From Escherichia phage A4: DNA of 64,000 bases. The notes under the pieces are model-generated. The model did not search any database, was not told the origin of the DNA, and saw nothing but the letters and a program-made list of their open reading frames with translations. The stretch lies in sequence record ON286972; one strand, given 5' to 3'. Shown in pieces: positions 4,109-64,000 of the stretch; the first letter of the stretch is position 1; each line of letters starts with the position of its first letter. The position numbers were made by a program, and so were the translations under genes.

Positions 4109-4360
4109 ATGAGTGAACATAGTGCAGTACTAAAAAAGATTTTAAATGATATGGGTAGTGAATTTGAAGTTTCAGACGAAGAATATGAATTTTGGAAAAA
4201 GGATTTTGAACAACTGTCCGAGAGTGATAAAGTGTTCAATATGATTGGTGTGGTCAGTCAGTACATATTAGGCGGTGGTCGTGCTAGTGCTTCAATCCTT
4301 GCATCGGCAATCATCTGTACTGCCCGATGGTGTCAAGAAAAAAGTATTGACGATTTCTAA
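4109..4360 (+). CDS. hypothetical protein (83 aa)
   Basis: Same frame as track ORF 4070..4360; first ATG at 4109 (MSEHSAVL...), overlapping the stop of a 25-aa upstream micro-ORF at 4039..4116. Confidence 0.45.
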   Translation: MSEHSAVLKKILNDMGSEFEVSDEEYEFWKKDFEQLSESDKVFNMIGVVSQYILGGGRASASILASAIICTARWCQEKSIDDF

Positions 4361-4418
4361 ATTAGGAGATATAATGTTTGTATCAGAGAGAAAGAATGTA
4401 TAAGGAATTATATTTTGC

Positions 4419-4447
4419 TTGACAATGGAGCAATAATATTATACAAT
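4419..4447 (+). promoter_or_regulatory. sigma70-type promoter
   Basis: TTGACA-N17-TACAAT. Confidence 0.5.
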
Positions 4448-4646
4448 TAATCAATCTTATACAACGAGGAAACTCCAATTGAAATATGTAATGATCCTTA
4501 TCCCAGTGGGGTCATTCCATGAAATTCTACCTACTGATGTACTGGATGGTCTTAAAAAGAGAAATCCACATAAGTTTTAAATAGTATTAAAAAGGACAAT
4601 ACTGGGCGAATATTCGTCCAGTATTTTATTTTATAAAGGATTATAG

Positions 4647-6545
4647 ATGGAACCGATACGTGTACTATCACTATTCAATGGGATGAGTGTTGGGTATATG
4701 GCCTTGCAAAGTGCAGGAATACCAGTTGAAAAGTACTACTCATCTGAAATTGATAAATTTGCTATAGCTGAATCCCAGGCTAACTTTCCTGATATCATCC
4801 AATTGGGTGATGTAACTAGATGGAAAGAATGGGATATCGAATGGGACAAGATAGATCTTCTGATGGGTGGTTTTCCTTGCTTCCCAGCAGGAACCATGAT
4901 CATGACAAATGAAGGTCATAAAGATATAAAAGATATAAAAATTGGTGATATGGTTCTTACACACACTGGACAATACCAAAAAGTATTGAGTATTGGTAGC
5001 AAGATTGCACCAACAAGAATCATCACAGGTCAGGGACATATACCAATTGAATGCACTGATAATCATCCATTTTATGCGAGAAAAATGAGCAAGAAGTGGG
5101 ATAATGAAAAACGACAATATGTTCGTGAATATACAGAACCTACATGGATCGATGCACATGAACTCACAGAAGAACATGCTATATGTAATGTTCGTTGTAA
5201 TGTGAATTTTCAACATAACAAGAGTGAAAGCTTTTGGTATTTCATGGGTAGATTTATGGGTGATGGATGGACTTACAAAGTAAAACGACAAAATAGAAAA
5301 AATAGTTATCAATATCGTGTTTTTATTTGCTGTGCTCATGATGAATTTGATGAATTGGTTTCATGTTTTGATGGTATGAATATGAAATATAATTTTGTTA
5401 AAGAAAGAACATCTTATAAATTCTATATTTGTTCAAAAGAACTAGTTGAATTTTGTGAACAAATGGGTAAGGGTGCTTCAAATAAACAAGTACACCCCAC
5501 ACTTTTCACTGAAAGTATCGCTAATCAGAAAGCATTCATTGATGGTTATTTTGACGCAGATGGTCACCATGACAAGAAAGATGATTGTTTAAAATTTACA
5601 TCAACATCAAAGAATGTTATTCTTGGTATACAACAACTAATTATGAATGTGTATGGTCGTCATTCTAACATAACATACTTTAAACCGTCTGAAACAAAAG
5701 TTATAGAAGAACGTGTTGTTAATCAGAAGCCGTATTACGTATTAACATACAAAAAAGAAAAGCACCGAAAAGATGAAGCATTCTATGATGATGGGTCATA
5801 TTCATGGGTAAAAGGTGTTAAATCGAACACCACAACCGGAGAATGGAAAACCGTTTACAATATTGAAGTTGCAGTAGATAACACATATACGGCGAACAAT
5901 ATTGTAGTTCATAACTGCCAAGCGTGGTCAGTTGCTGGGAAACAAGGCGGTGTGAATGATCCTCGTGGTATGTTATTCCATACAATGGTTGATATTTACC
6001 AGCACATAAAAAGTCTCAATCCTAACTTGAAAGTTCTTTTTGAGAATGTTAAGATGAAGGAAGATTTCAAGGATTATATCAATGGCGTGTTGGAAATGAC
6101 ACCAATTTTGATAAATTCACAAAATTATACAGCACATTATCGCCAACGTTACTACTGGTATAGCTCGGATAAGTTGTTTATTCCAAAACCTCTTATTTTA
6201 GCACCAAAATTACAAGATATACTAACTGGTAATTGGTATACTGATCGTGATAAATCATATTGCATTGACGCAAACTACTTCAAGGGTGGAGATCCGAATC
6301 AGTACTTCAATAAGTCAAGAAGACAAATCGTTTTCAAAGACCCTGATATCAACAGGAACTTCCTGATTGAGAAGGGTAAACGAAATGTGGACTATCGTCA
6401 TTTAACAGTACAAGAGTGTTGCATGTTGCAAGGAATTGATGTAAACTACTTCAAAGTTAGTAGTTCAACACAAGCGTACAAAATGCTTGGTAATGGCTGG
6501 ACAGCACCTGTTATAGAACATTTACTACGTGATATATTCTTTTAA
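4647..6545 (+). CDS. DNA (cytosine-5) methyltransferase, intein-containing precursor
   Basis: Motif I LSLFNGMSVGY, GGFP|C...intein...HN|CQAWS (motif IV PCQ restored after splicing), ENV motif VI, QRYYW, GNGWT. Confidence 0.85.
   Translation: MEPIRVLSLFNGMSVGYMALQSAGIPVEKYYSSEIDKFAIAESQANFPDIIQLGDVTRWKEWDIEWDKIDLLMGGFPCFPAGTMIMTNEGHKDIKDIKIGDMVLTHTGQYQKVLSIGSKIAPTRIITGQGHIPIECTDNHPFYARKMSKKWDNEKRQYVREYTEPTWIDAHELTEEHAICNVRCNVNFQHNKSESFWYFMGRFMGDGWTYKVKRQNRKNSYQYRVFICCAHDEFDELVSCFDGMNMKYNFVKERTSYKFYICSKELVEFCEQMGKGASNKQVHPTLFTESIANQKAFIDGYFDADGHHDKKDDCLKFTSTSKNVILGIQQLIMNVYGRHSNITYFKPSETKVIEERVVNQKPYYVLTYKKEKHRKDEAFYDDGSYSWVKGVKSNTTTGEWKTVYNIEVAVDNTYTANNIVVHNCQAWSVAGKQGGVNDPRGMLFHTMVDIYQHIKSLNPNLKVLFENVKMKEDFKDYINGVLEMTPILINSQNYTAHYRQRYYWYSSDKLFIPKPLILAPKLQDILTGNWYTDRDKSYCIDANYFKGGDPNQYFNKSRRQIVFKDPDINRNFLIEKGKRNVDYRHLTVQECCMLQGIDVNYFKVSSSTQAYKMLGNGWTAPVIEHLLRDIFF
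4878..5915 (+). mobile_element. intein with LAGLIDADG homing-endonuclease domain (346 aa)
   Basis: Begins CFPAGTMIMT (Cys at 4878), two LAGLIDADG-like blocks (FMGRFMGDGW, FIDGYFDADGH), ends IVVHN at 5915 followed by Cys. Confidence 0.8.
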
Positions 6546-15709: not shown

Positions 15710-16199
<490 letters not shown>

Positions 16200-16216
16200 T
16201 AATTAAAGGTTAAACC

Positions 16217-16595
<379 letters not shown>

Positions 16596-16596
16596 C

Positions 16597-17611
<1,015 letters not shown>

Positions 17612-17614
17612 TTC

Positions 17615-17770
<156 letters not shown>

Positions 17771-17798
17771 CAAAACGAAATGATAATAGGAAATTAAA

Positions 17799-17984
17799 AT
17801 GCAACTTTTAATTCTTTCAATATTGTATATTATTATAATGGTTCCTATATCAATACGTTTAATTATACTTGAACGATTTTTATCGAAACATGGAAATAGA
17901 TCTATGATATTTGTACCAATCGGGCTTATATTGTTTGGTATATTTGCATTTATAATGGGAATTAACGCTACATTCATTTCATAG
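17799..17984 (+). CDS. small membrane protein (61 aa)
   Basis: ORF track; two hydrophobic helices. Confidence 0.45.
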   Translation: MQLLILSILYIIIMVPISIRLIILERFLSKHGNRSMIFVPIGLILFGIFAFIMGINATFIS

Positions 17985-17993
17985 GAAACAAAT

Positions 17994-18475
<482 letters not shown>

Positions 18476-18482
18476 AAGAACG

Positions 18483-18515
<33 letters not shown>

Positions 18516-18516
18516 C

Positions 18517-18572
<56 letters not shown>

Positions 18573-18573
18573 T

Positions 18574-18780
<207 letters not shown>

Positions 18781-18874
18781 GGTTCAAGAAGAAAACTGGG
18801 GTTTTTAACCTAACGAGGTCAATATGAAAGTAAGTAAAGAAACAGCTAAACAGATTGAAGAACTCTGCACTGCT

Positions 18875-18913
<39 letters not shown>

Positions 18914-18914
18914 A

Positions 18915-18966
<52 letters not shown>

Positions 18967-18967
18967 A

Positions 18968-19098
<131 letters not shown>

Positions 19099-31936: not shown

Positions 31937-32899
31937 GTGAAGAAACTAGACTTAAACGCAATTTCCGAAGAAGTACTGGATGAATGTTTTGCGAATGAAG
32001 AAGTCAATCCATTGGAAGCAATTGAACCATCAGAAGTTATTGAAGATGATATTCCACATAAAGTTCGTAGTAAAAGTAACATTAGTCTCAAGCGTCCAGT
32101 AGGTGTGACTAATGAATCCATCATCGAAGAGATTCGTGCTGGAATTAATGTAAAAAAGAACACTGACCTATTACTTCGTTATAACTATGGTATGATCGTT
32201 GATGTTGCTTCAAAGTGTACATGTTATATTCCGTTTGAAGATAAAATTGCATATGGTGTAGAAGGTTTTATGCGAGCACTTAAAACCTTTGATCTTAGTA
32301 AGAATGTCAAATTCATTACATATGCAACAACGTCCGTTTATATGACTATGTATAATGAAAGTTCAGATGCAAATTACATGGTGTACTTACCACGTTATAT
32401 GAGCGTTCATAACATCCAAGTACGTCGATTTAATGAATCATATCAACGTGAACACGGTAAGCGACCTACACCAGAATTAATCTCTGAGAGTACTGGTATC
32501 GAGCTTCAGCACGTTAAGAACTGTTTGTTATACCAGAATGCATATACGACTCTTGATGCACAACTGGGTTCAGATTCAGACGGAACCCTTGGGGATATTC
32601 TGAGTTCATCTGCTCGTGATTATAACCTTAATGTTGATAGCATTTGTAATCCATTACGTTATGCAATCACAGAAATCATTGACGAATTGAGTACTAAAGA
32701 ACGAGAAATTATCATGCGTGTTCATGGTCTTGGGGATTACAAAGCAGAAACCCTTCGTGAAATTTCTGATAATGGATATGTTGATGATAAAGGAAACATT
32801 GTTAAGTCCCGTTCATCTGTGCACCGAAAATATAGTGAAGCTATTCAAAAGCTTAAAAAAATAGTACTTGAAAAAGGGTACGAATACGAAGATTTCTAA
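31937..32899 (+). CDS. phage-encoded sigma70-family RNA polymerase sigma factor
   Basis: GTG start after AGGAG; region-2-like LLLRYNYGMIVDVA...FMRALKTFD...KFITYATTSVYM and region-4-like LSTKEREIIMRVHGL...TLREIS...SRSSVHRKYSEAIQKLKK. Confidence 0.75.
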   Translation: MKKLDLNAISEEVLDECFANEEVNPLEAIEPSEVIEDDIPHKVRSKSNISLKRPVGVTNESIIEEIRAGINVKKNTDLLLRYNYGMIVDVASKCTCYIPFEDKIAYGVEGFMRALKTFDLSKNVKFITYATTSVYMTMYNESSDANYMVYLPRYMSVHNIQVRRFNESYQREHGKRPTPELISESTGIELQHVKNCLLYQNAYTTLDAQLGSDSDGTLGDILSSSARDYNLNVDSICNPLRYAITEIIDELSTKEREIIMRVHGLGDYKAETLREISDNGYVDDKGNIVKSRSSVHRKYSEAIQKLKKIVLEKGYEYEDF

Positions 32900-54715: not shown

Positions 54716-54745
54716 AAAAAAGCCCACATTAAGTGGGCTTTTTGT
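54716..54745. terminator. bidirectional intrinsic terminator between convergent gene blocks
   Basis: AGCCCAC-ATTAA-GTGGGCT hairpin flanked by AAAAA and TTTTGTT. Confidence 0.6.
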
Positions 54746-56769
54746 TATTTGTGTTTTATGTGTAAAGTGTCTAATATTGTATTGAACAATGATTTAGCAG
54801 AAATCATGATTACTTGATCAAAATCTTTAGTATAAGAAATATTAGCAGTACTGGAAGAATCTTTCACCTCATCCGGTAATGCATCAAACTCTTCTTTTTC
54901 CATAATCTTTTCAAGTTCTTCACGAGAAATGGCTTTTACGTTTTCAATAGTCCTTAGTTGTATATTATAATCTTTATAATACGAAACTAAGTTCGTTGCG
55001 TATGAACCATCTTTAGATGCTGTTCCAGTAAAATCATAACATCCTGTATCAGTACTAACCCAATCGATTTTCCCTGAACTACCACTATATACACCTTTGT
55101 TGAACTTAATGTTAACAACATCACCAATAGTTTTCAATATACCACCTTTACATTCATTAAATGCGTTTAATTGATAACTTGTAGTCATATAGAATTTCGG
55201 TTCTAATGTAACAGTATCACCTACAGTTGCTTTCATATCAGAAACACTTAAGAACAATTCATTAAATCCTTTTGAATAAGTCTTGGTAATTGTTGTTCCA
55301 TCCCTGTTAGTTACTGTGTATTCTAAGTCCAATTCACAAATACTATTCAATGATAAGTAAGGGATATCAAATTTATCAGTACTAGCATCATAAGGACATC
55401 TTGAGGATGGTAGTATACCAGTAGGGTTTGGTACGTATTGAACTTTTGTTAACTCATACCCGCTTGCATTCGCTGGTGTAACTGTAATAGACGGTGTAGA
55501 TATTCCTTTCATTCCACAGAAGTATATGTTATCTGGAAAATCATTTATTACGAAGTCAGTGACAGGAATATCATAAGTATCTTTATCAGTCCAATTAAGA
55601 ACAACATTAGAACTGGTTGGATCAACAATATGTTCACTAGAACCACAGAAATATACTGATTTGGTATTAGTAATCATTAGTAATGTTTTGGATGATGAGT
55701 TCAATTCAAGAACATCTTTCACTTCAAGACCAGATGGTAATGTCAATGGTAACTTCGTAAATGATGTTAAATCTTGTTCATCTTTAACACCACTAGTCCC
55801 CGCCGGAAACTTACCTGAACCATAGAAAACACCTTTATTCGTCATGAAATACATGAACGGGGTTGATGTTCCTTTGTCAAATAGTTGAATGTCATCACAT
55901 GTTAAACCATCAGGTAAATCCACTTTAGATGGAGTTCTATAAACACCAGGCTTAATACCACCTTCACCATTACTTACATCACCTAGTACATATAAATCTT
56001 TACCTAGTTTCAAGAACATTGATTTATTTTTAGCACACAAGAATGTATCATATGATTTATCATCAATTGGTAGCTTGGTATATTCGGTGTATGTAGGCAT
56101 TGAATCATCAATCCACGAACTATCACCACTAATGTAAATGTGATTGTTTCTGTCAATATAATATGAATACACATCAGTACTGTTCATATATAAAGCATTT
56201 AGTGCATTTGTTTTCACTAAGTGATTGAACTTAAGAACTTGTTTTCCATCGTACTTATGGGAGTTGACACCAATATCACCATTTAGGCTACTACCAATTG
56301 AATATATATGACCACGTGGTAATAGAACTTGAACACCACTTTTGGTTAAATTATATTTGGAGTGCAAGAGATCGTTATATACAACTCTAACTTTCTTAAA
56401 GATATCAGTACATTCAATCCACGATTTAGATGGTGTACCATCCATTCCTATTATTGCCGGATCACCATAATAATAAGCTTTATTTTCATATGATATTTTA
56501 AAAGATGATTTACCATCTTTTGTATTAGCACTGAAGTACACATCTTTACTATCTTTAATTGGATAAGTACTATTCTCTACAAAAGTATTATATGAGATAT
56601 CGTTGTTAGCACTATTAAGAACAAAAGAAGTAGATGTACTATTGGACTTATAGACTGCTACGGAAGATGTATCACTGAAATCAATTTTAGTGAACGTATC
56701 TTTGTATGTTTCGTTTAATAATCCTACATAAAAAACATCAGTGCCATCCATCAGTAACGAATATAGCAT
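54745..56769 (-). CDS. RCC1-like repeat protein, possibly the C-terminal part of a frameshifted gene continuing from 56738..57682
   Basis: ORF track; no RBS before its ATG; frame opens 29 nt upstream of the stop of the preceding minus-strand ORF. Confidence 0.55.
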   Translation of the reverse strand: MLYSLLMDGTDVFYVGLLNETYKDTFTKIDFSDTSSVAVYKSNSTSTSFVLNSANNDISYNTFVENSTYPIKDSKDVYFSANTKDGKSSFKISYENKAYYYGDPAIIGMDGTPSKSWIECTDIFKKVRVVYNDLLHSKYNLTKSGVQVLLPRGHIYSIGSSLNGDIGVNSHKYDGKQVLKFNHLVKTNALNALYMNSTDVYSYYIDRNNHIYISGDSSWIDDSMPTYTEYTKLPIDDKSYDTFLCAKNKSMFLKLGKDLYVLGDVSNGEGGIKPGVYRTPSKVDLPDGLTCDDIQLFDKGTSTPFMYFMTNKGVFYGSGKFPAGTSGVKDEQDLTSFTKLPLTLPSGLEVKDVLELNSSSKTLLMITNTKSVYFCGSSEHIVDPTSSNVVLNWTDKDTYDIPVTDFVINDFPDNIYFCGMKGISTPSITVTPANASGYELTKVQYVPNPTGILPSSRCPYDASTDKFDIPYLSLNSICELDLEYTVTNRDGTTITKTYSKGFNELFLSVSDMKATVGDTVTLEPKFYMTTSYQLNAFNECKGGILKTIGDVVNIKFNKGVYSGSSGKIDWVSTDTGCYDFTGTASKDGSYATNLVSYYKDYNIQLRTIENVKAISREELEKIMEKEEFDALPDEVKDSSSTANISYTKDFDQVIMISAKSLFNTILDTLHIKHK

Positions 56770-57682
56770 TTCTATTATTACATAAAGAAGTAATATTTTT
56801 TACTACTTTATTTGAATTATAGTTTGGTAACTTCTTTAATCCACGAACAAAATTATCACAAATAATACCAGTACCATAGAAGTTATAATCTTTATCACAG
56901 TATATAAATGCTGTATCATATGGTGAAGTACTTAAATTCTTATAGAATGGGAATGGAGTGAATGTGAATTGTAGAACCTTACGCAATTCCCCTACTGTCT
57001 CTGTTGGGAATTGTCTGTTTTTATTATTACCAATAAAAACAACTCTATCTGTTAGGAATGTGTACATAATTCCATATGGTTTTACGTACAAATCATTATA
57101 TCCCAATGATAATTTAGTTGGTGATGTTAGTGGTCCTGAGTTTATTTTGGTTTGATTAATTGAAAACTCATTAGAATTATAACCAGCCCCATATGTATTA
57201 CCATTAGTACTTAAATAATATACAGTAGCTTCCCCTGCTCCAAGAAAAGTCTTTACATCAGTTGCTAACGTTTTTTGGAAAGTTGGATAAAATTTATTAT
57301 ATGTTCCCGTTCCCATCATCAGTTCACCATTGCGGTTATGACCACGAGCATATAGAATACCTTTGTCTGTATCTAAGAAGAACATACCATTATATGTTTT
57401 GTAAATCTTACCTTTTGTAATATCGAAATTGGAAAAATCATCACTAATATCAATGAATATTGTCTCAAGATTATCTTCAAGGGAGTTTAGAGATTTACCA
57501 CAATACCATACTGAGTTATCTTTTTTAACAGCAACACAACCACACGGACTGGCATCAAAATATGTTACATCGGAAAGAACCAGAGATAAGTTCTTTGTAC
57601 TGCAATAGTTATCCATTGCATATAAATCGGAATCTTTAAGTATATATACGGAATTCCCAACCGCTTTAATCGAATTTATCAT
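56738..57682 (-). CDS. RCC1-like repeat protein (N-terminal part or separate gene)
   Basis: Track ORF 56738..57772 trimmed to ATG 57682 (MINSIK...) after GAGGA RBS; G.N..GELMMGTG-type repeats. Confidence 0.55.
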   Translation of the reverse strand: MINSIKAVGNSVYILKDSDLYAMDNYCSTKNLSLVLSDVTYFDASPCGCVAVKKDNSVWYCGKSLNSLEDNLETIFIDISDDFSNFDITKGKIYKTYNGMFFLDTDKGILYARGHNRNGELMMGTGTYNKFYPTFQKTLATDVKTFLGAGEATVYYLSTNGNTYGAGYNSNEFSINQTKINSGPLTSPTKLSLGYNDLYVKPYGIMYTFLTDRVVFIGNNKNRQFPTETVGELRKVLQFTFTPFPFYKNLSTSPYDTAFIYCDKDYNFYGTGIICDNFVRGLKKLPNYNSNKVVKNITSLCNNRNAIFVTDGWH

Positions 57683-57901
57683 GTTTATATCCTCATAAAT
57701 TGATACCAATTCTAATGTATTTACCCACTTAAAGTACAAAAAATGATCAATTAAATGGGGAATCTTTAACAAATGAATTCATGATGTACTTGATGAATTG
57801 CCCATACCAACGGATTCCTCAGTCCCAGCATACCACATGGTATTATCGAACTTTTTATCATTGTAGTATCATAACCACACCAAACATCATCAACATTAGT
57901 A

Positions 57902-59254
57902 TTACAACAATTGTATTTCTGTGAGTGTTTGATATGTTGTACCGTTGTACACACCTCTCCAATATACCCTACCTTCAGTACTAACCACTAATAATCCATA
58001 TGTTGTAAACCCAAGAGTACCACCAACATACATAGCATCTTTAATTCGAATACCAATGTCTTCATATGTAAATGAAGCGACTGCTCCCGCTTGCCACGAA
58101 GGACTAGCGTAGTAATCACTATAAACACCATGTGCTTTATATATTGATGTTGTTCCTGGTTCAAAAATTACAGTTCCACAGTAGTTCATTCGTATTTTAG
58201 TACTGGATGAAGTCGGTACATTTATACCTATGCCATCTTTTATCCCTGTAGTTAGGACGTTAAAACCACCCGCCACACGGTTGACGTCATTCTCACCGAT
58301 TAAAAACATACCAACGTTGTAGCCCATATAATATACACTGCTACTGCCATTCCAGAAAGAAAAACCACCACCATTACCACAGCGATATAGTTGTGAATTT
58401 GAGCAGTACATCATACCTTCGTTTGTCGCATCAAATTCATCTGCTGTTCCTATTGTAGCTACAGTAGTCCACGTTTTAATCACTTGGTTTGTACTAGCTG
58501 GTGTTTGTATACCATATCGTATATTATATCCCTTACCAACGATTGTACCATCTTCTAATTTAGCATAAAGTACAGGTCTATTACCAACAAAATACATATT
58601 ATTGTGTGACATGTCTATTGTGCATCTTAATGAAACTACTTTTTGTGTCAATTGATTATCTTTAGTAAAAGAAGTAAAGTAGTAATCCGATGTTGAGTTG
58701 TTTATTAAACCTTGTATTGACAATCCCATATACCAGATTTCACCATTGCTGTTTAATGCTGCCAAAATACAACTATATTTTGAAGTGTATGCTGGTGATG
58801 TTGTTGAAGTTGCTGGTCCTTTATCATATCCACCACAGAATACCATCTCCACAACTTCACCTACGTTCGAAAAATAAGAAGATACATTGATAAAACCATT
58901 TGTTATAAAAGGTGCTGTATTCATACTTGAATGTGTGAATATCCCATTTGCATATACACCACAAAAATGATATGAACCATCATTATCTTGGACTATTATT
59001 CCATTTGATAGTAACCAAAAATTGTTTACATTTTTTCTTACTAATTCAACTCCTGCACCATTGGTTGGTGTTATACCAAAAGAAACATATTTTGTTTGAC
59101 CAATACCATATAAATTTCCATTAGTTGCTAGTATTGCACCAAACCAGTTCCCACCACCATTCCTATCATGACCCATACCAATGGAGTCAAATTTCTTCAC
59201 AGTAGGGACTTCAACTTTATTCCCATACTCTAGCATTCTAACAAAAGGTAACAT
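57902..59254 (-). CDS. RCC1-like beta-propeller repeat protein (putative receptor-binding or tail-fibre-like), paralog E
   Basis: Track ORF 57902..59320 trimmed to ATG 59254 (MLPFVRMLEYGN) after AGGAGG; track N-extension reads through the terminator hairpin. Confidence 0.65.
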   Translation of the reverse strand: MLPFVRMLEYGNKVEVPTVKKFDSIGMGHDRNGGGNWFGAILATNGNLYGIGQTKYVSFGITPTNGAGVELVRKNVNNFWLLSNGIIVQDNDGSYHFCGVYANGIFTHSSMNTAPFITNGFINVSSYFSNVGEVVEMVFCGGYDKGPATSTTSPAYTSKYSCILAALNSNGEIWYMGLSIQGLINNSTSDYYFTSFTKDNQLTQKVVSLRCTIDMSHNNMYFVGNRPVLYAKLEDGTIVGKGYNIRYGIQTPASTNQVIKTWTTVATIGTADEFDATNEGMMYCSNSQLYRCGNGGGFSFWNGSSSVYYMGYNVGMFLIGENDVNRVAGGFNVLTTGIKDGIGINVPTSSSTKIRMNYCGTVIFEPGTTSIYKAHGVYSDYYASPSWQAGAVASFTYEDIGIRIKDAMYVGGTLGFTTYGLLVVSTEGRVYWRGVYNGTTYQTLTEIQLL

Positions 59255-59318
59255 ATATCCTCCTTTATTCATTATATTATATTTAATCAAAAAAGAAAAG
59301 CCAGTACAGAGTACTGGC
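59255..59318 (-). promoter_or_regulatory. repeated intergenic cassette: terminator hairpin, TATAAT box, AGGAGG RBS
   Basis: Minus-strand read: GCCAGTACTCTGTACTGGC, T-tract, GATTAAATATAATATAATGAATAAAGGAGG, ATG; near-identical at four sites. Confidence 0.5.
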
Positions 59319-59329
59319 ATTTAAAATAA

Positions 59330-60505
59330 TCAAAATGTAGGAAGTTTGAATTCTCTCATAACAGATGAACTGCTTGCAGATACATTATCTGGTGATTTCC
59401 CTGCGTAGTATAATTTATTATCAATGAACATATACAATGTTGCATCATTTCCTGCTACAAGTGATTCACTTTTCTTAAATTTAACACCACTAGGTAAAAT
59501 TGCTTCAACAAATGAACCTGATTCTCTTGTAGTATTATTTGCCAATTGACCATTGTTATTATAACCAGTACTATAAATTTTACCTGAACTATAATATACG
59601 AGTCCACGAGTACTAGTGTTTTCTATTCGAATGAATTCACTATCATCTGGGACTGTAGTTGATAGAACTGGGTTTAACTTATAAGCAGATGATACATTAT
59701 TATTACCCAATTGACCATAACCTTGAAAGCCTAGTGTATACATAGGACATGATTCTGGTGTGCCTTTTGTTATAATACCAATATAATTCACACTACAAAA
59801 AATGTCTATTGCTTCTGTAATAGGTGTACCCTTATATTGAACCCAAGGGAATACATACGATTGTTGCTTACCATTTCCCAAAGTACCGGAAGTTGTTGTC
59901 CCAGTACGCCACATTGTATCATCAAGTTTAATAATCCAGTTAGCTGTCGTTATCGATGAACAGAATTTTTTAACATTATCCACTAAAAATGTAAATTGAT
60001 TATAATATGATGCAGTGTTTATACCAAACTTAGCACCAGTATTATCACCTAACAAATATAAACTATTATCTGTACCTAAAATCAAAGCATAATCATAACC
60101 CACGTATATATCTTTAATTCTTGAAATTCCAAATTGTGTAAAATAGCTTGTACATTCTGTGAATGTTGTTATATTATTGGTTGTATTATTACCTAGCCAT
60201 TTATCTAAACCACTATAAAAGAATCTATCATCATTTGTGCGTATTAGACAAAAAGCGTTCATTGTACTGCACCAAAAATCTTTAACATTGCTATATATTT
60301 TTGTCCATTCAGTTACTGCATTAGTATGACCTAAACCAAAAATTCCACCATTCTGAAGACCAATAGCCCATATTGAACCATTTTTATCAAGCATCATTGT
60401 ACATGTATGTGAATAACCACCCGATGGTGTAACTAATTTAACAAAATTGGGAATATATGGTAAAACTTTATTTCCATAATCCAACATTCTAACAAAAGGT
60501 AACAT
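59330..60505 (-). CDS. RCC1-like beta-propeller repeat protein, paralog D
   Basis: Trimmed to ATG 60505 (MLPFVRMLDYGN); repeats such as GIFGLGHTNAVTEW, GYGQLGNNNVSSAY. Confidence 0.65.
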   Translation of the reverse strand: MLPFVRMLDYGNKVLPYIPNFVKLVTPSGGYSHTCTMMLDKNGSIWAIGLQNGGIFGLGHTNAVTEWTKIYSNVKDFWCSTMNAFCLIRTNDDRFFYSGLDKWLGNNTTNNITTFTECTSYFTQFGISRIKDIYVGYDYALILGTDNSLYLLGDNTGAKFGINTASYYNQFTFLVDNVKKFCSSITTANWIIKLDDTMWRTGTTTSGTLGNGKQQSYVFPWVQYKGTPITEAIDIFCSVNYIGIITKGTPESCPMYTLGFQGYGQLGNNNVSSAYKLNPVLSTTVPDDSEFIRIENTSTRGLVYYSSGKIYSTGYNNNGQLANNTTRESGSFVEAILPSGVKFKKSESLVAGNDATLYMFIDNKLYYAGKSPDNVSASSSSVMREFKLPTF

Positions 60506-60569
60506 AATTCCTCCTTTATTCATTATACTATATTTAATCAAAAAAGAAATGCCAGCATCAAGTACTGGC
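60506..60569 (-). promoter_or_regulatory. repeated intergenic cassette (terminator, TATAAT, RBS)
   Basis: Hairpin GCCAGTACTTGATGCTGGC, T-tract, TATAGTATAATGAATAAAGGAGG. Confidence 0.5.
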
Positions 60570-60576
60570 ATTATTG

Positions 60577-61767
60577 TTATAGTTGTCTTGGTGTATCAAG
60601 TACATATCTATTTGTACTAGGACCACCATCATCATACGTTCCGGTTGAATATATATTTTTCATATCAGCAGTTAGAAAAGTACGATACGAACCGCGATAT
60701 ATTTTTATTTTATCATACATAGAATATGATATTTCTGCTGGCATTGGACATATAGTAAATCTACCAATAGTAACATTAGAACCAACACCCAACGAACCAG
60801 CATAACTACTCGCATTTAAACCAGTTGCATATACACCAGTACTCGTAACTAGTATACTAGATTGTGTTGGGTATCCTGTATGAATTGAATACAAAGTTCC
60901 AGTTGGTAATGTCGTACTATTGCTCCCTAATACAGCAAGTGCCGAACTGGTTGTGGTATTGTTACCCCATGCACCATTACTCGCTAAACCACCAACTAGA
61001 AACTGACGTGCACCAGTACTTGGATTCTCAACCAAAGCACTGACTGCACCACTTGAGCATCCAGTGTATTGTAACGTTTTTGTGTATGTTGTACTTGGTT
61101 TATATAAAGTATATTCATTAAATGGTGTCCATGTGGTACTGGTACTTATACCTGACGTACCACCACCAATATATAAATTATTTTGTGTATCAAAAAACAT
61201 TACACAGTTATTTGTTGACTGTATTTGTGCAATATCAACATTAGGCGTGACAGCTTTTACAAATGATCCATCTGTTATTTGTTGAGTACTACCAGTACCA
61301 TCAGCGAATTGTCTAGCCCCACTCCAACCAGTACTCCATATTGTATTATTATCCATTAATACCGTAAACCACGTAGTACCTCCATACATCTGTTTAATTG
61401 AAGTACTTGAACTTTGCGTGTACAAATTTTCAATATATTGGTTATAACTTAAAAACGTAGTAGTACTAGTTGGTAAACCAATATGATCACCATATCCACA
61501 ATAAAAATAATTTGAGTCATTATCTTGTACTAACAAAGTTCCTTGTGACACCCAGAAATCTTTAACATTTTCTCTAATTAAGGTCCATGACTTTACTGCA
61601 TTACTATTTCCTATACCAAACTTCCCAAAACTATTATTTCCACGTGCGTATAGTTGACCATCCGTATAAAGAACGACAACATCTAAATCAGTTGGTGTTA
61701 TTTTCTTAATTTGAATAGGGACTGGTGTTATATTCCCATAATCAAACATTCTAACAAAAGGTAACAT
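60577..61767 (-). CDS. RCC1-like beta-propeller repeat protein, paralog C
   Basis: ORF track; starts MLPFVRMFDYGN; GKFGIGNSNAVKSW repeats. Confidence 0.65.
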   Translation of the reverse strand: MLPFVRMFDYGNITPVPIQIKKITPTDLDVVVLYTDGQLYARGNNSFGKFGIGNSNAVKSWTLIRENVKDFWVSQGTLLVQDNDSNYFYCGYGDHIGLPTSTTTFLSYNQYIENLYTQSSSTSIKQMYGGTTWFTVLMDNNTIWSTGWSGARQFADGTGSTQQITDGSFVKAVTPNVDIAQIQSTNNCVMFFDTQNNLYIGGGTSGISTSTTWTPFNEYTLYKPSTTYTKTLQYTGCSSGAVSALVENPSTGARQFLVGGLASNGAWGNNTTTSSALAVLGSNSTTLPTGTLYSIHTGYPTQSSILVTSTGVYATGLNASSYAGSLGVGSNVTIGRFTICPMPAEISYSMYDKIKIYRGSYRTFLTADMKNIYSTGTYDDGGPSTNRYVLDTPRQL

Positions 61768-61832
61768 ATTTCCCTCCTTTATTCATTATACTATATTTAA
61801 TCAAAAAAGAAAAGCCAGTATCAAGTACTGGC
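61768..61832 (-). promoter_or_regulatory. repeated intergenic cassette (terminator, TATAAT, RBS)
   Basis: Hairpin GCCAGTACTTGATACTGGC, T-tract, TATAGTATAATGAATAAAGGAGGG. Confidence 0.5.
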
Positions 61833-61838
61833 CTATAT

Positions 61839-63008
61839 TTAAACTGGTGAATCTAATACAAATTCTAAACTACTAATGCCACCATATGTGACATTTGTCC
61901 CTGTGCTATATACAAAATTACCATCAGTTATATAAGTTCGGTTATACCCACCTGCCATCTGCGACTTACTATAATCAAACCCATCAGGAACGATTGCTTT
62001 GGTATATACTAATGCATTATTAGATGTACCAATACCTAACATACCAGCTCCTGAAGATTTATTGTAGCCGCAACAATATATACCATCTGTTGTAGCAATA
62101 ACTTGGTTATAATATGAAGTAATGTTAGCAATGCTTACTACATCACCGGGTGGCATTAGTGAAGCAGTTTGAACCTCAAATGCTCTATAATCACTGAGAG
62201 AACCATTTATCCCATCTGCTTGTGCACCAAATATTCTCGAACCGCCATTTGCGATGATGGTTTTACCAGTGGGATCAGTACCAATTGCCATTGCCATTGA
62301 AGTACTATTCTCCATATAGTACTTGATATTAATTGTATTTCTTAAGCTGGTAGGAGCACCATAATATATAGTATATAACTTACCTCCTGAACTTGTAACT
62401 GCATTTACTCTTCCTGTATAAAATAGCCATCCTTGGTTTGTAACATAACCGTGCATTAAATTACTTGCAAACAATTTAACAGGTAATTGATCTGCTGCGG
62501 TCGGAACAGTACTTTTGACGAATTTTCTAGCAACATTGTTAGTTGTTGTCCCATCACCCAACTGACCATCACCCCCTGCTCCAGTACTCCATATTGTTTG
62601 GTCTGTTAGTAATACACTTGTAGTCTGATAACTAACTGCTATATCTAATATTGGTAATGTTAACGTATCGAATGTTGGCATAGCAGAAGTCCATATTGAT
62701 ACTGCTGCCCCTGGCATACCAACAGTTGTTGAACTTCCACTGTACCATATTTCATCATTGCTTTTCTTAATAACTATCGACGTGGCTCCCATCCAAAAAT
62801 CTTGAACATCAGAAGTGCTAAAAGTCCATGTAGTAACAATATTTTTGTGACCTAAACCCAAAAGACCATTTGTATTCTCACCACGCACATATAAATCACC
62901 ACTGTTTGTTAAAACAGCAACATTATAGTTGTTAGCTAGTATTTTTTTAATATTTGGTTTAGCAGGTGCAATATTCCCATACTCTAACATTCTTACAAAA
63001 GGTAACAT
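61839..63008 (-). CDS. RCC1-like beta-propeller repeat protein, paralog B
   Basis: Track ORF 61839..63170 trimmed to ATG 63008 (MLPFVRMLEYGN); GLLGLGHKNIVTTW, GQLGDGTTTNN repeats. Confidence 0.65.
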   Translation of the reverse strand: MLPFVRMLEYGNIAPAKPNIKKILANNYNVAVLTNSGDLYVRGENTNGLLGLGHKNIVTTWTFSTSDVQDFWMGATSIVIKKSNDEIWYSGSSTTVGMPGAAVSIWTSAMPTFDTLTLPILDIAVSYQTTSVLLTDQTIWSTGAGGDGQLGDGTTTNNVARKFVKSTVPTAADQLPVKLFASNLMHGYVTNQGWLFYTGRVNAVTSSGGKLYTIYYGAPTSLRNTINIKYYMENSTSMAMAIGTDPTGKTIIANGGSRIFGAQADGINGSLSDYRAFEVQTASLMPPGDVVSIANITSYYNQVIATTDGIYCCGYNKSSGAGMLGIGTSNNALVYTKAIVPDGFDYSKSQMAGGYNRTYITDGNFVYSTGTNVTYGGISSLEFVLDSPV

Positions 63009-63072
63009 AATTCCTCCTTTATTCATTATATTATATTTAATCCAAATAAGAAAGCCAGTATCAAGTACTGGC
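63009..63072 (-). promoter_or_regulatory. repeated intergenic cassette (terminator, TATAAT, RBS)
   Basis: Hairpin GCCAGTACTTGATACTGGC, T-tract, TATAATATAATGAATAAAGGAGG. Confidence 0.5.
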
Positions 63073-63078
63073 ATTGTG

Positions 63079-64000
63079 TTATTTCGGTAAATCAATTTTA
63101 GTAAAGACTGCAACATCCTCGCTTGCACCGGGAATGGCGTAATACGTTCCAGTACTATATACATCTCCATTTTTGGTTAATATTGAAGTCAAACCATCAC
63201 TAAAAAGAACATCCCTAATCTCACTAACTTCAACGGGTAATTGTAAATTTGTAGCACTATATATAGCACCAGTTTGAGAATTGTTTAATCCCAAACCACG
63301 GTTCGCCCCAACACCCTTCTGATATGTACTGGTAATTACCATTTGTGTAGCAGTATTTAATGCAGGTGAATTCGTCATAAACAACGGAGAACTATTAGGC
63401 AAAGTACTTACAGGAACTGCACGGAATGTAGTCGTACCTGAACTAAGAAAGTTTGGAGTTTGACCACATACGAAATATGATGTACCATTATAGTAATTAA
63501 ATGCATTACCACCAATCGCTGCATCGATTACACCAGAACTACGTAATCCCCAAGTGTTAATTTGTGTTTGGTCCCCTGTACCATGCTGCCCACTGCTATT
63601 CCATCCAGAACTATATAGCTTATTATCTAATGTAATATACATACTATCATTTGCATTAGTCATTACTTTACGCACGTTAGTAGCACATTGAGTTAATGTG
63701 TAAATCGATGATGAGCCAATACCTAAAGAACCACGATATCCATTATCTCCTGCACCATAGAGTACTGAACTAGTGCTAAGTACAAATATTAAACCATTTG
63801 TACATACAATATTAGCAATTTCACTCACTGGTATAGCATTGGTAAACCAATTAGTCCTTTCAACTAATATAGTACTGTAAGAAGTAGTTGTAGAAGATGA
63901 GAACCAGTACGTTTCACCCGATGTCCATATCGTATTATCATTTTTAATAATAACAAGTGTACGACCACCCACGAAAAAATTAGAAACATCTGAACTTACT
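63079..64000 (-). CDS. RCC1-like repeat protein, paralog A, 5'-truncated by window edge
   Basis: Frame stays open upstream of the track start (GTG 63972) to the window end; GYRGSLGIGSSS, GQHGTGDQTQINTW repeats. Confidence 0.55.
   Translation of the reverse strand, partial: VSSDVSNFFVGGRTLVIIKNDNTIWTSGETYWFSSSTTTSYSTILVERTNWFTNAIPVSEIANIVCTNGLIFVLSTSSVLYGAGDNGYRGSLGIGSSSIYTLTQCATNVRKVMTNANDSMYITLDNKLYSSGWNSSGQHGTGDQTQINTWGLRSSGVIDAAIGGNAFNYYNGTSYFVCGQTPNFLSSGTTTFRAVPVSTLPNSSPLFMTNSPALNTATQMVITSTYQKGVGANRGLGLNNSQTGAIYSATNLQLPVEVSEIRDVLFSDGLTSILTKNGDVYSTGTYYAIPGASEDVAVFTKIDLPK

What the first reader, a model, noticed from the sequence alone, without database searches (positions are those of the whole stretch)
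4647..6545. C5 cytosine DNA methyltransferase interrupted by a LAGLIDADG intein exactly at the catalytic Pro-Cys motif
The 632-aa ORF has methyltransferase motif I (LSLFNGMSVGY) and GGFP, then at Cys (4878) an insertion of 346 aa begins CFPAGTMIMT (intein block A-like). It contains two LAGLIDADG-type motifs (FMGRFMGDGW, FIDGYFDADGH) and ends ...IVVHN (5915), immediately followed by CQAWS. Splicing would recreate GGFP-CQ (motif IV), followed by ENV (motif VI), QRYYW and GNGWT. This is a selfish element inside what is probably an anti-restriction or self-protection methyltransferase.
Basis: partly seen in the sequence, partly recalled or inferred. Interest (0 to 1): 0.8.

Follow-up and report, generated by a model that had tools for sequence, protein, structure and literature searches.

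The report
Intein splitting a phage cytosine methyltransferase
A jumbo coliphage's DNA cytosine methyltransferase gene is interrupted, right before its catalytic cysteine, by a mobile self-splicing protein element (an intein with a homing endonuclease); this is a correctly read, previously unannotated example of an already known kind of selfish element.

Summary
ORF 4647..6545 (+) encodes a 632-aa precursor. Residues 78-423 (nt 4878..5915, 346 aa) are a class 1 intein with a double-motif LAGLIDADG homing endonuclease. It sits between Pro77 and the catalytic Cys of C5-methyltransferase motif IV, and that Cys is the intein's +1 nucleophile.

- **Extein:** in-silico splicing gives a 286-aa enzyme that matches PF00145 contiguously across the junction.
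- **Fold:** the modelled intein (pLDDT 93) matches the TliVMA intein, PI-SceI, PI-PfuI and I-DmoI.
- **Source:** the window comes from an Asteriusvirus-like jumbo phage.
- **Empty sites:** about 30 relatives, including 121Q and PBECO4, carry the same gene without the insert. Four carry it (TH47, JNE01, UE-S1, ph0011).
- **Mobility:** TH47 shows a co-conversion tract. Its backbone is 121Q-like, but the intein plus about 30 nt upstream and about 190 nt downstream are JNE01-like.
- **Selection:** the endonuclease domain is under purifying selection (dN/dS about 0.08).
- **Wider family:** related inteins occupy the same Pro|Cys site in many unrelated phage and metagenomic C5-methyltransferases.

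Inteins in C-5 methylases are already listed in surveys, so this is a new member of a known kind. Minor peculiarities are a native Pro at -1 and Asn at block F position 4. Splicing, cleavage and methylation were not tested.

The parts
4647..6545 (+). Precursor ORF: 632 aa plus stop, calculated mass 73.8 kDa
   Evidence: The identical protein is in NCBI (USL83787.1 and others), named only 'DNA cytosine methyltransferase' or 'hypothetical protein'.
4647..4877 (+). N-extein, aa 1-77. It holds C5-methyltransferase motif I (LSLFNGMSVGY, nt 4665-4697) and the first half of motif IV (GGFP, nt 4866-4877). Pro77 is the -1 residue.
4878..5915 (+). Intein, 346 aa, 40.5 kDa, from Cys1 (ORF Cys78) to Asn346 (ORF Asn423)
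   Evidence: Pfam Hint_2, Intein_splicing and LAGLIDADG_3. AF2 model pLDDT 93. Foldseek: TliVMA intein E=6e-18 with TM 0.71, PI-SceI, PI-PfuI. The segment is absent from orthologues.
4878..4916 (+). Intein block A (CFPAGTMIMTNEG). Cys1 is the first nucleophile.
   Evidence: C1 is invariant and F2, T10 and G13 are conserved among 28 family members.
5049..5072 (+). Intein block B core (ECTDNHPF), with Thr60 and His63 forming the TxxH motif
   Evidence: H63 is invariant and T60 is at least 90% conserved. Residues checked.
5205..5768 (+). LAGLIDADG homing-endonuclease domain, approximately intein aa 110-297
   Evidence: DSSP of the model shows alpha-beta-beta-alpha-beta-beta-alpha twice, with helices at 117-129 and 214-228. 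I-DmoI matches by sequence and by fold, target TM 0.6-0.68. dN/dS is 0.07-0.10.
5241..5270 (+). LAGLIDADG motif 1 (FMGRFMGDGW). Asp129 is the predicted metal-binding acid.
   Evidence: G124 invariant, G130 at least 90%
5535..5567 (+). LAGLIDADG motif 2 (FIDGYFDADGH). Asp228 is the predicted metal-binding acid.
   Evidence: G223 invariant; D228 and G229 at least 90%
5853..5915 (+). Intein blocks F and G (VYNIEVAVDNTYTANNIVVHN). Asn328 is at the F:4 position, Asn335 at the F:13-equivalent position, then penultimate His345 and terminal Asn346.
   Evidence: TIGR01443 intein_Cterm matches ORF residues 403-424 weakly, E=0.052.
5916..6542 (+). C-extein, aa 424-632. Cys424 (nt 5916-5918) is both the +1 splice nucleophile and the catalytic Cys of motif IV (PCQ). 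It also holds ENV (6042-6050), QRYYW (6144-6158) and GNGWT (6489-6503).
4635..4640 (+). Shine-Dalgarno-like AAAGGA, 6 nt before the ATG
   Evidence: read from the sequence

Best explanation
The gene encodes a 73.8-kDa precursor in which a class 1 intein carrying a LAGLIDADG homing endonuclease lies between Pro77 and the catalytic cysteine of an orphan C5 cytosine DNA methyltransferase.

Inferred mechanism:
1. After translation, intein Cys78 makes an N-S acyl shift onto the Pro77 carbonyl.
2. Cys424, the +1 residue and the future catalytic thiol of the enzyme, takes over the N-extein by trans-thioesterification.
3. Asn423 cyclises and releases the 40.5-kDa intein.
4. An S-N shift restores the peptide bond and recreates GGFP-CQAWS in a 33.3-kDa, 286-aa methyltransferase.

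The precursor cannot be active, because motif IV is split and its thiol is engaged in splicing. The freed intein is predicted to cut the intein-less allele at the DNA that encodes the Pro-Cys motif when a related phage co-infects the same cell. Recombinational repair then copies the intein, together with some flanking sequence, into that genome (homing).

Shown here: the anatomy, all the signature residues, the fold, empty-site orthologues, purifying selection, and a co-conversion footprint in a sister phage. Inferred: splicing itself, endonuclease activity, and methyltransferase activity.
For: - **Profiles:** Hint, intein and LAGLIDADG profiles hit the insert. The spliced extein is contiguous against PF00145 and passes the TIGR00675 cut-off only after splicing.
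- **Signature residues:** Cys1, Thr60/His63 (block B), His345-Asn346 and Cys+1 are all present, and are invariant or nearly so among 28 relatives.
- **Fold:** the AF2 model has pLDDT 93 and pTM 0.90. Its top PDB fold matches are endonuclease-containing inteins (TliVMA E=6e-18, TM 0.71; PI-SceI; PI-PfuI), and I-DmoI for the middle domain.
- **Empty sites:** 121Q, PBECO4 and about 30 other Asteriusvirus-like phages, plus GAP32, CBB and RaK2, have the same gene without the insert at 64-81% amino-acid identity.
- **Mobility:** TH47 and JNE01 inteins are 94.4% identical in nucleotides while their exteins are 83.4% identical. dS is 0.17 in the endonuclease domain against 1.0-1.3 in the exteins. TH47 is 121Q-type at 25 of 29 informative N-extein sites and 77 of 84 distal C-extein sites. 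It is JNE01-type at 8 of 11 sites in the last ~30 nt before the intein and at 31 of 41 sites in the first ~186 nt after it.
- **Selection:** dN/dS is 0.07-0.10 in the endonuclease domain.
- **Same site elsewhere:** 37 of 38 complete metagenomic homologues, and phages of Mannheimia, Lactobacillus, Erwinia and P1-like RCS47, carry a related intein at P|C...N|C of a PF00145 protein. Some are decayed (264 aa) or mini (149-153 aa) forms, as the homing cycle predicts.
Against: - Nothing was tested biochemically.
- The -1 residue is Pro. Tested natural and engineered inteins generally do not tolerate Pro at -1 (PMC6486613).
- Block F position 4 is Asn rather than the usual Asp, and the F:13-equivalent position is Asn rather than His (PMC4031507).
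- Both features are shared by almost the whole family (Pro at -1 in 37 of 38; Asn at F:4 in 38 of 40). That argues for adaptation rather than decay, but it leaves the chemistry unverified.
- The co-conversion footprint is in sister phages, not in the window's own lineage. No close intein-less relative of the window's lineage is available.
Confidence: 0.85

Rival explanations
1. The intein still splices, but in this phage its endonuclease is inactive. It would be at a late stage of the homing cycle and retained only because precise loss is rare.
For: Decayed and mini versions of the same intein exist at the same site: P0003 at 264 aa, and P0039 and P0040 at 149-153 aa. No intein-less close relative of the window's own lineage was found, so recent homing into this lineage could not be shown.
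Against: Both LAGLIDADG motifs keep their acidic residues, Asp129 and Asp228. The domain is full length and modelled with confidence. dN/dS is 0.07-0.10 against TH47 and JNE01. The same endonuclease type moved recently in TH47.
Confidence: 0.12
2. The insert is a non-splicing in-frame insertion, so the methyltransferase gene is a pseudogene.
For: Pro at -1 and Asn at F:4 are both unfavourable in model inteins. In Mannheimia phage 587AP2, the reading frame after the related intein runs into a stop after 20 codons, so dead copies may exist.
Against: All nucleophiles and the block B His are intact. The exteins are under strong purifying selection in intein-bearing alleles, with dN/dS 0.02-0.16. 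The arrangement is kept in five phages and dozens of metagenomic lineages.
Confidence: 0.03
3. Splicing is conditional, for example gated by redox state through a Cys1/Cys+1 disulfide or by temperature. The intein would then also act as a timer for phage DNA methylation. This adds to the main explanation rather than replacing it.
For: Both splice nucleophiles are cysteines, and the +1 Cys is the enzyme's catalytic thiol, so enzyme activity is strictly coupled to splicing. The non-canonical F:4 Asn and -1 Pro could make splicing slow or tunable.
Against: There is no direct evidence. The sporadic distribution, with most relatives doing without the intein, fits a parasite better than a regulator.
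Confidence: 0.1

Closest known systems
Endonuclease-containing class 1 inteins with solved structures: TliVMA and PhoVMA inteins, PI-SceI (Sce VMA1), PI-PfuI
   Same: A Hint splicing domain interrupted by a two-motif LAGLIDADG endonuclease. Cys1, block B TxxH, terminal His-Asn and Cys+1 are all present. The insertion is at a catalytic motif of the host protein. Fold match TM 0.71 to TliVMA.
   Different: Only 12-17% sequence identity. The host protein is a C5-methyltransferase. The -1 residue is Pro, F:4 is Asn and the F:13-equivalent position is Asn. At 346 aa it is smaller than PI-SceI (454 aa).
Inteins of phage DNA methylases (actinobacteriophage surveys: Kelley 2016, PMC5050341; Gosselin 2023, PMC9957025; bioRxiv 10.1101/2025.01.02.630785)
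   Same: LAGLIDADG inteins inside orphan phage DNA methyltransferases. They are patchily distributed, and intein and extein histories disagree. The 2025 survey lists C-5 methylase (IPR001525) among the invaded hosts. Mycobacteriophage methylase inteins hit this intein at E~1e-30 and about 26% identity.
   Different: The well-described actinophage cases are N6/N4 methylases with a different junction, for example Pacc40 ...MHV|C...KN|CPLQ. This case is a Gram-negative jumbo myovirus, and the site is motif IV Pro|Cys. No paper in the searchable library describes that site.
Unannotated inteins at the same Pro|Cys site in other phage C5-methyltransferases (Asteriusvirus TH47, JNE01, UE-S1 and ph0011; Mannheimia 587AP2; Lactobacillus Nyseid; Erwinia Y3; P1-like RCS47 Dmt)
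   Same: Identical insertion point (…P|C[FS]xxG…HN|C[QK]…). They belong to the same intein family, at 24-77% identity over the full length.
   Different: UE-S1 and ph0011 share nearly identical splice-junction regions with the window (95-100% nucleotide identity) but carry a different endonuclease core (43-68% nucleotide, 30-40% amino-acid identity). The window's intein is therefore a mosaic of the two types.
I-DmoI (free-standing or intron-encoded monomeric LAGLIDADG endonuclease)
   Same: Two LAGLIDADG helices in one chain, with 22-24% identity over the domain and target TM 0.6-0.68.
   Different: I-DmoI is intron-encoded and has no splicing domain.

Membership tests
Class 1 intein (Hint splicing domain) | N-terminal Cys/Ser nucleophile at intein position 1 | tested here: met
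   Cys78 of the ORF. It is invariant in 28 relatives.
Class 1 intein (Hint splicing domain) | Block B Thr-x-x-His | tested here: met
   Thr60-Asp-Asn-His63. His is invariant and Thr is at least 90% conserved.
Class 1 intein (Hint splicing domain) | C-terminal (His)-Asn followed by a Cys/Ser/Thr +1 residue | tested here: met
   His345-Asn346 | Cys424. Asn is invariant. +1 is Cys in 38 of 38 homologues.
Class 1 intein (Hint splicing domain) | Block F position 4 Asp (an assisting residue, 'most commonly Asp', PMC4031507) | tested here: not met
   Asn328 here, and Asn in 38 of 40 family members. The position is described as less conserved, so this is not disqualifying.
Class 1 intein (Hint splicing domain) | Hint fold | tested here: met
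   AF2 pLDDT 93. Foldseek: TliVMA intein E=6e-18 with TM 0.71, PI-SceI, PI-PfuI. Pfam Hint_2 scores 36.7 bits, above its 28.4 cut-off.
Class 1 intein (Hint splicing domain) | The insert is absent from orthologues, and the exteins are colinear with the uninterrupted protein | tested here: met
   121Q, PBECO4, GAP32, RaK2 and others lack it. The spliced product aligns through the junction.
Class 1 intein (Hint splicing domain) | Autocatalytic protein splicing | not testable with these tools
   Needs expression followed by SDS-PAGE or mass spectrometry.
LAGLIDADG homing endonuclease (monomeric, two-motif) | Two LAGLIDADG helices, each ending in an acidic residue | tested here: met
   FMGRFMGD129G and FIDGYFDAD228G. 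The helices lie at 117-129 and 214-228 in the model.
LAGLIDADG homing endonuclease (monomeric, two-motif) | Profile and fold match | tested here: met
   PF14528 scores 33.8 bits, above its 22.5 cut-off. I-DmoI and PI-PkoII match by sequence and by fold.
LAGLIDADG homing endonuclease (monomeric, two-motif) | Mobility: a footprint of gene conversion into empty alleles | tested here: met
   TH47 co-conversion tract. Intein dS is 0.17 against extein dS of 1.0-1.3. This was shown for sister phages, not for the window's own lineage.
LAGLIDADG homing endonuclease (monomeric, two-motif) | Site-specific double-strand cleavage of the intein-less allele | not testable with these tools
   Needs purified protein and a target plasmid.
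C5 cytosine DNA methyltransferase (PF00145 / TIGR00675) | Motifs I (FxGxG-like), IV (PCQ), VI (ENV), VIII (QxRxR-like) and X (GN...V), in order | tested here: met
   LFNGMSVG, GGFP-CQ (after splicing), ENV, RQRYYW and GNGWTAPVI.
C5 cytosine DNA methyltransferase (PF00145 / TIGR00675) | Profile score above the curated cut-off | tested here: met
   PF00145 scores 123.6 bits against a cut-off of 22. TIGR00675 scores 116.1 bits against a cut-off of 100.65, for the spliced product only. DNMT3B E=2.4e-22 and M.HhaI 2e-18.
C5 cytosine DNA methyltransferase (PF00145 / TIGR00675) | 5-methylcytosine formation at a defined sequence | not testable with these tools
   Needs a methylome (bisulfite, EM-seq or nanopore) of phage DNA.
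Class 3 intein | No position-1 nucleophile, Cys at F:4, and the WCT triad | tested here: not met
   Cys1 is present and F:4 is Asn.

The most novel reading that the evidence does not exclude
The inteins at the Pro|Cys site may form a distinct lineage that has solved a chemical problem standard inteins handle badly: splicing through a prolyl thioester (-1 Pro). It would do so with a non-canonical catalytic set, namely Asn at F:4 and often Phe or Tyr in place of the penultimate His. The same solution may have let the lineage colonise the Pro-Cys catalytic nucleophile of two mechanistically related enzymes, C5-methyltransferases and thymidylate synthase (Aeromonas phage PS1 ThyA: ...LTP|C...HN|CHFSF). 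If so, the lineage would be a natural source of inteins tolerant of Pro at -1, and possibly a splicing-gated switch for phage DNA methylation.
Probability: 0.15. Interest if true: 0.6.

Novelty: new member of a known kind. Interest (0 to 1): 0.33.

Why it matters
- **Annotation:** this protein and its four phage homologues are deposited as plain 'DNA cytosine methyltransferase' or 'hypothetical protein'. The UE-S1 genome paper counts its homologue as a methyltransferase and does not mention an intein (PMC12805682).
- **Phage biology:** the case gives clean evidence that inteins are currently moving among jumbo coliphages, with a mapped co-conversion tract. It also shows that two endonuclease cores have been exchanged within one splicing scaffold.
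- **Protein engineering:** this is a family of natural inteins whose native -1 residue is proline. It is worth testing, because proline at -1 blocks most inteins used as tools.

Tried and rejected
- **Other inteins in the window:** I searched the window for further inteins by tblastn with 28 family members. Only noise turned up, with a best E-value of 0.003 over 39 residues.
- **Complete E. coli genomes:** megablast of the gene found no match.
- **Literature:** four searches for a description of an intein at motif IV of a C5-methyltransferase, or in Asteriusvirus or RaK2-like phages, found only a one-line listing of C-5 methylase as an intein host and terminase inteins in RaK2 and K64-1. Novikova 2016 does not mention methylases at all.
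- **Promoter scan:** the number of promoter-like sites around the gene equals the shuffled expectation, so I make no promoter claim.
- **Extein switching:** I considered whether the intein clade is host-specific. Inteins from NrdD, ThyA and N6/N4 methylases score as high against this intein as some C5-methyltransferase inteins do, so I do not claim a clean extein-switching history.
- **Rejected alternatives:** a group I intron is excluded because the reading frame is continuous and Hint blocks are present. A bacterial intein-like domain is excluded because the +1 Cys, the terminal Asn and an endonuclease are present. A class 3 intein is excluded because Cys1 is present and F:4 is not Cys.
Full report
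**Observation**

The ORF at 4647..6545 on the + strand encodes 632 residues.
- Motif I, LSLFNGMSVGY, starts at nt 4665.
- GGFP is followed by Cys78 at nt 4878.
- The insert is 346 residues and starts CFPAGTMIMT.
- The LAGLIDADG-type motifs FMGRFMGDGW and FIDGYFDADGH are at nt 5241 and 5535.
- The insert ends ...IVVHN at nt 5915, and CQAWS follows at nt 5916.
- ENV, QRYYW and GNGWT follow at nt 6042, 6144 and 6489.

**Profile evidence**

- Against Pfam, the precursor hits DNA_methylase (E=4.9e-29, in three pieces), Hint_2 (6.9e-9, above the curated cut-off) and LAGLIDADG_3 (4e-8, above the cut-off). It also hits Intein_splicing, Hom_end_hint and Hom_end more weakly.
- With residues 78-423 removed, the 286-aa product hits DNA_methylase at E=1.6e-35. 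A single stretch, residues 4-125 to profile positions 1-114, runs through the junction.
- The NCBIfam dcm model (TIGR00675) scores the precursor at 96.4 bits, below its 100.65 cut-off. It scores the spliced product at 116.1 bits, above it.
- Against solved structures, the spliced product aligns end to end with the DNMT3B and DNMT3A catalytic domains (E=2.4e-22). Its N-terminal half aligns with M.HhaI and M.HaeIII (about 2e-18).

**Structure of the insert**

I aligned 28 family members. Invariant positions include Cys1, His63 (block B) and Asn346. Thr60, Asn328, Asp228 and Gly229 are at least 90% conserved. AlphaFold2 on this alignment gives a confident model, with mean pLDDT 93 and pTM 0.90. 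The model has a beta-rich splicing domain made from residues ~1-105 and ~298-346. Between them lies a domain with two alpha-beta-beta-alpha-beta-beta-alpha halves, whose first helices (117-129 and 214-228) are the two LAGLIDADG motifs. Foldseek against the PDB returns endonuclease-containing inteins first: TliVMA (E=6e-18, TM 0.71), PI-SceI and PI-PfuI. I-DmoI follows for the middle domain. Sequence search of the PDB independently finds the gp41-1 intein, PI-PkoII, VMA inteins and I-DmoI.

**Where the window comes from, and the empty sites**

The window resembles Asteriusvirus jumbo coliphages (121Q, PBECO4 and others) at about 85% nucleotide identity over about a quarter of a 24-kb test stretch. 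The identical protein lies on a 357,761-bp contig of an E. coli assembly, GCA_012813795.2. NCBI names it 'DNA cytosine methyltransferase' or 'hypothetical protein'. The neighbouring genes are small ORFs with almost no Pfam hits, and none is a nuclease, so the methyltransferase is an orphan.

A tblastn search with the spliced extein finds an uninterrupted 286-297-aa orthologue in about 30 Asteriusvirus-like phages (about 80% identity). It also finds one in Erwinia phage Hallingskeid, GAP32, CBB, XbC2 and the RaK2 group (64%). Only TH47, JNE01, UE-S1 and ph0011 are interrupted, and at exactly the same codon. The DNA of the empty site in 121Q (…ATGGGTGGTTTCCCA|TGCCAAGCCTGGTCAGTTGC…) differs from the joined flanks of the window only at synonymous positions.

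**Evidence that the element moves**

- TH47 and JNE01 inteins are 94.4% identical in DNA, while their exteins are 83.4% identical. TH47's exteins are closer to the intein-less 121Q, at 90.9%.
- Between TH47 and JNE01, synonymous divergence is 0.17 in the endonuclease domain and 0.28-0.37 in the splicing lobes. It is 1.0-1.35 in the exteins.
- At sites where 121Q and JNE01 differ, TH47 follows 121Q at 25 of 29 sites in N-extein nt 1-195 and at 77 of 84 sites beyond nt ~200 of the C-extein.
- TH47 follows JNE01 at 8 of 11 sites in the last ~30 nt before the intein and at 31 of 41 sites in the first ~186 nt after it.

This is the co-conversion tract expected when a JNE01-type intein homes into a 121Q-type allele. 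The endonuclease domain has dN/dS of 0.07-0.10 in the window/TH47, window/JNE01 and TH47/JNE01 comparisons, which indicates selection for function.

The window's own intein is a mosaic.
- Its junction-proximal parts are 95-100% identical to UE-S1. These are the last ~110 nt of the N-extein, the first ~120 nt of the intein and the last ~100 nt of the intein.
- The first ~120 nt of the C-extein is 88-95% identical to UE-S1.
- Its endonuclease core is only 43-68% identical to UE-S1 and instead resembles TH47 and JNE01, up to 90%.

Two endonuclease cores have therefore been exchanged within one splicing scaffold.

**The same site elsewhere**

Related inteins (24-31% identity over the full length, E down to 1e-39) sit at the same point, P|C…N|C[Q/K/T], in C5-methyltransferases of several other phages. 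These are Mannheimia phage 587AP2, Lactobacillus phage Nyseid, Erwinia jumbo phage Y3 and the C5 domain of the P1-like RCS47 Dmt. Pseudomonas phage Lana has a close variant of the junction, PD|C.

A search of 5.8 billion proteins returned 41 clusters, nearly all carrying PF00145. Of the 38 with both junctions, 37 have Pro at -1 and all have Cys at +1 (30 are CQ). Sizes range from full inteins (331-369 aa) through a decayed one to mini-inteins. The decayed one is P0003 at 264 aa, sitting in an extein very like the window's. The mini-inteins are P0039 and P0040, at 149-153 aa. These are the stages of the homing cycle.

**Comparison with the literature**

- Inteins in phage DNA methylases are documented. 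The mycobacteriophage DNMT-1 and DNMT-2 inteins are in N6/N4 enzymes (PMC5050341). The Dorothy_75 methylase family shows patchy distribution and discordant histories for intein and extein (PMC9957025).
- For RaK2-like phages, only terminase inteins had been noted (PMC5259590).
- The UE-S1 genome paper counts UES1_76 as a methyltransferase and does not mention an intein (PMC12805682).
- I found no paper describing the motif IV Pro|Cys site.

The finding is therefore a new, unannotated member of a known kind.

**Peculiarities**

- The native -1 residue is Pro. A paper on engineered DnaX inteins states that natural and engineered inteins had previously failed with Pro at -1 or +2 (PMC6486613).
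- Block F position 4 is 'most commonly Asp' (PMC4031507). Here it is Asn328, and it is Asn in 38 of 40 family members. The F:13-equivalent position is Asn335 here and His in most relatives.
- Only 17 of 40 relatives keep the penultimate His. The window's intein does keep it.
- These features are conserved across the family, which suggests adaptation to the Pro-Cys junction rather than decay. The chemistry is untested.
- A related intein (27% identity, E=3e-27) precedes the catalytic Cys of thymidylate synthase in Aeromonas phage PS1 (…LTP|C…HN|CHFSF). That Cys is another Pro-Cys nucleophile working by the same pyrimidine-C6 attack chemistry.

**Mechanism proposed**

The precursor undergoes the standard four-step class 1 pathway, with Cys78, Cys424 and Asn423 as the reactive residues. 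This yields the 33.3-kDa methyltransferase with motif IV restored, plus a 40.5-kDa LAGLIDADG endonuclease that targets empty alleles in co-infecting relatives.

Shown here: the anatomy, the residues, the fold, the empty sites, selection, and a gene-conversion footprint in sister phages. Inferred: splicing, cleavage, methylation and the biological role of the methyltransferase.

**Verdict**

The element is ordinary in kind and modestly interesting in detail: a native Pro at -1, a mosaic endonuclease, and a well-defined recent homing event among jumbo coliphages. Interest is 0.33.

Noticed in passing
window 4347-4447 and 4598-4635: The 286-nt gap upstream of the methyltransferase holds two near-consensus sigma-70-like sites, TTGACG-17-TATAAT at 4347-4375 and TTGACA-17-TACAAT at 4419-4447. 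It also holds a 12-bp hairpin followed by a T-run (4598-4625) that ends about 20 nt before the start codon. In UE-S1 and 121Q the corresponding gap is only about 52 nt. The promoter-like count in the region is not above the shuffled expectation.
   Followed up: partly
window 4647-4877 + 5916-6542 (spliced extein): The best solved-structure matches of the 286-aa methyltransferase are the mammalian DNMT3B and DNMT3A catalytic domains, over the whole length (E=2.4e-22). They score better than bacterial M.HhaI or M.HaeIII, and the length is the same. The target specificity is unknown.
   Followed up: no
L015 1201-2211 (Aeromonas phage PS1, thymidylate synthase gene): A related LAGLIDADG intein (27% identity) is inserted at ...LTP|C...HN|CHFSF, immediately before the catalytic Cys of thymidylate synthase. 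This is the same Pro|Cys junction type as in the C5-methyltransferases.
   Followed up: partly
P0003, P0039, P0040 (metagenomic proteins): P0003 has exteins very like the window's methyltransferase, but its intein is 264 aa with an eroded endonuclease. P0039 and P0040 carry 149-153-aa mini-inteins at the same site.
   Followed up: partly
L005 1264-3100 (Mannheimia phage vB_MhS_587AP2): The intein-bearing methyltransferase is annotated as two overlapping CDSs. The frame after the intein (CQSDKGG...) reaches a stop after 20 codons. This suggests a frameshifted or dead copy, or a sequencing error.
   Followed up: no
window 54745-63972, minus strand: A run of large genes on the minus strand. At least three of them encode RCC1-like repeat proteins, at 54745-56769, 59330-60571 and 61839-63170.
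   Followed up: no
window 31937-32899 (+): A phage-encoded sigma-70-family factor, with regions 2 and 3 detected. It matches the 'RNA polymerase sigma factor' annotated in relatives.
   Followed up: no
window 16019-19088 (+): A cluster of six tRNA genes: Ser-tga, Gly-tcc, Ser-gct, Met-cat, Asn-gtt and Thr-tgt.
   Followed up: no
whole window: The source appears to be a 357,761-bp jumbo-phage contig inside an E. coli isolate assembly (GCA_012813795.2, AATHYQ020000001.1). The same protein occurs on at least six contigs from several samples. It is absent from RefSeq complete E. coli genomes and from the phage collection at high identity.
   Followed up: partly
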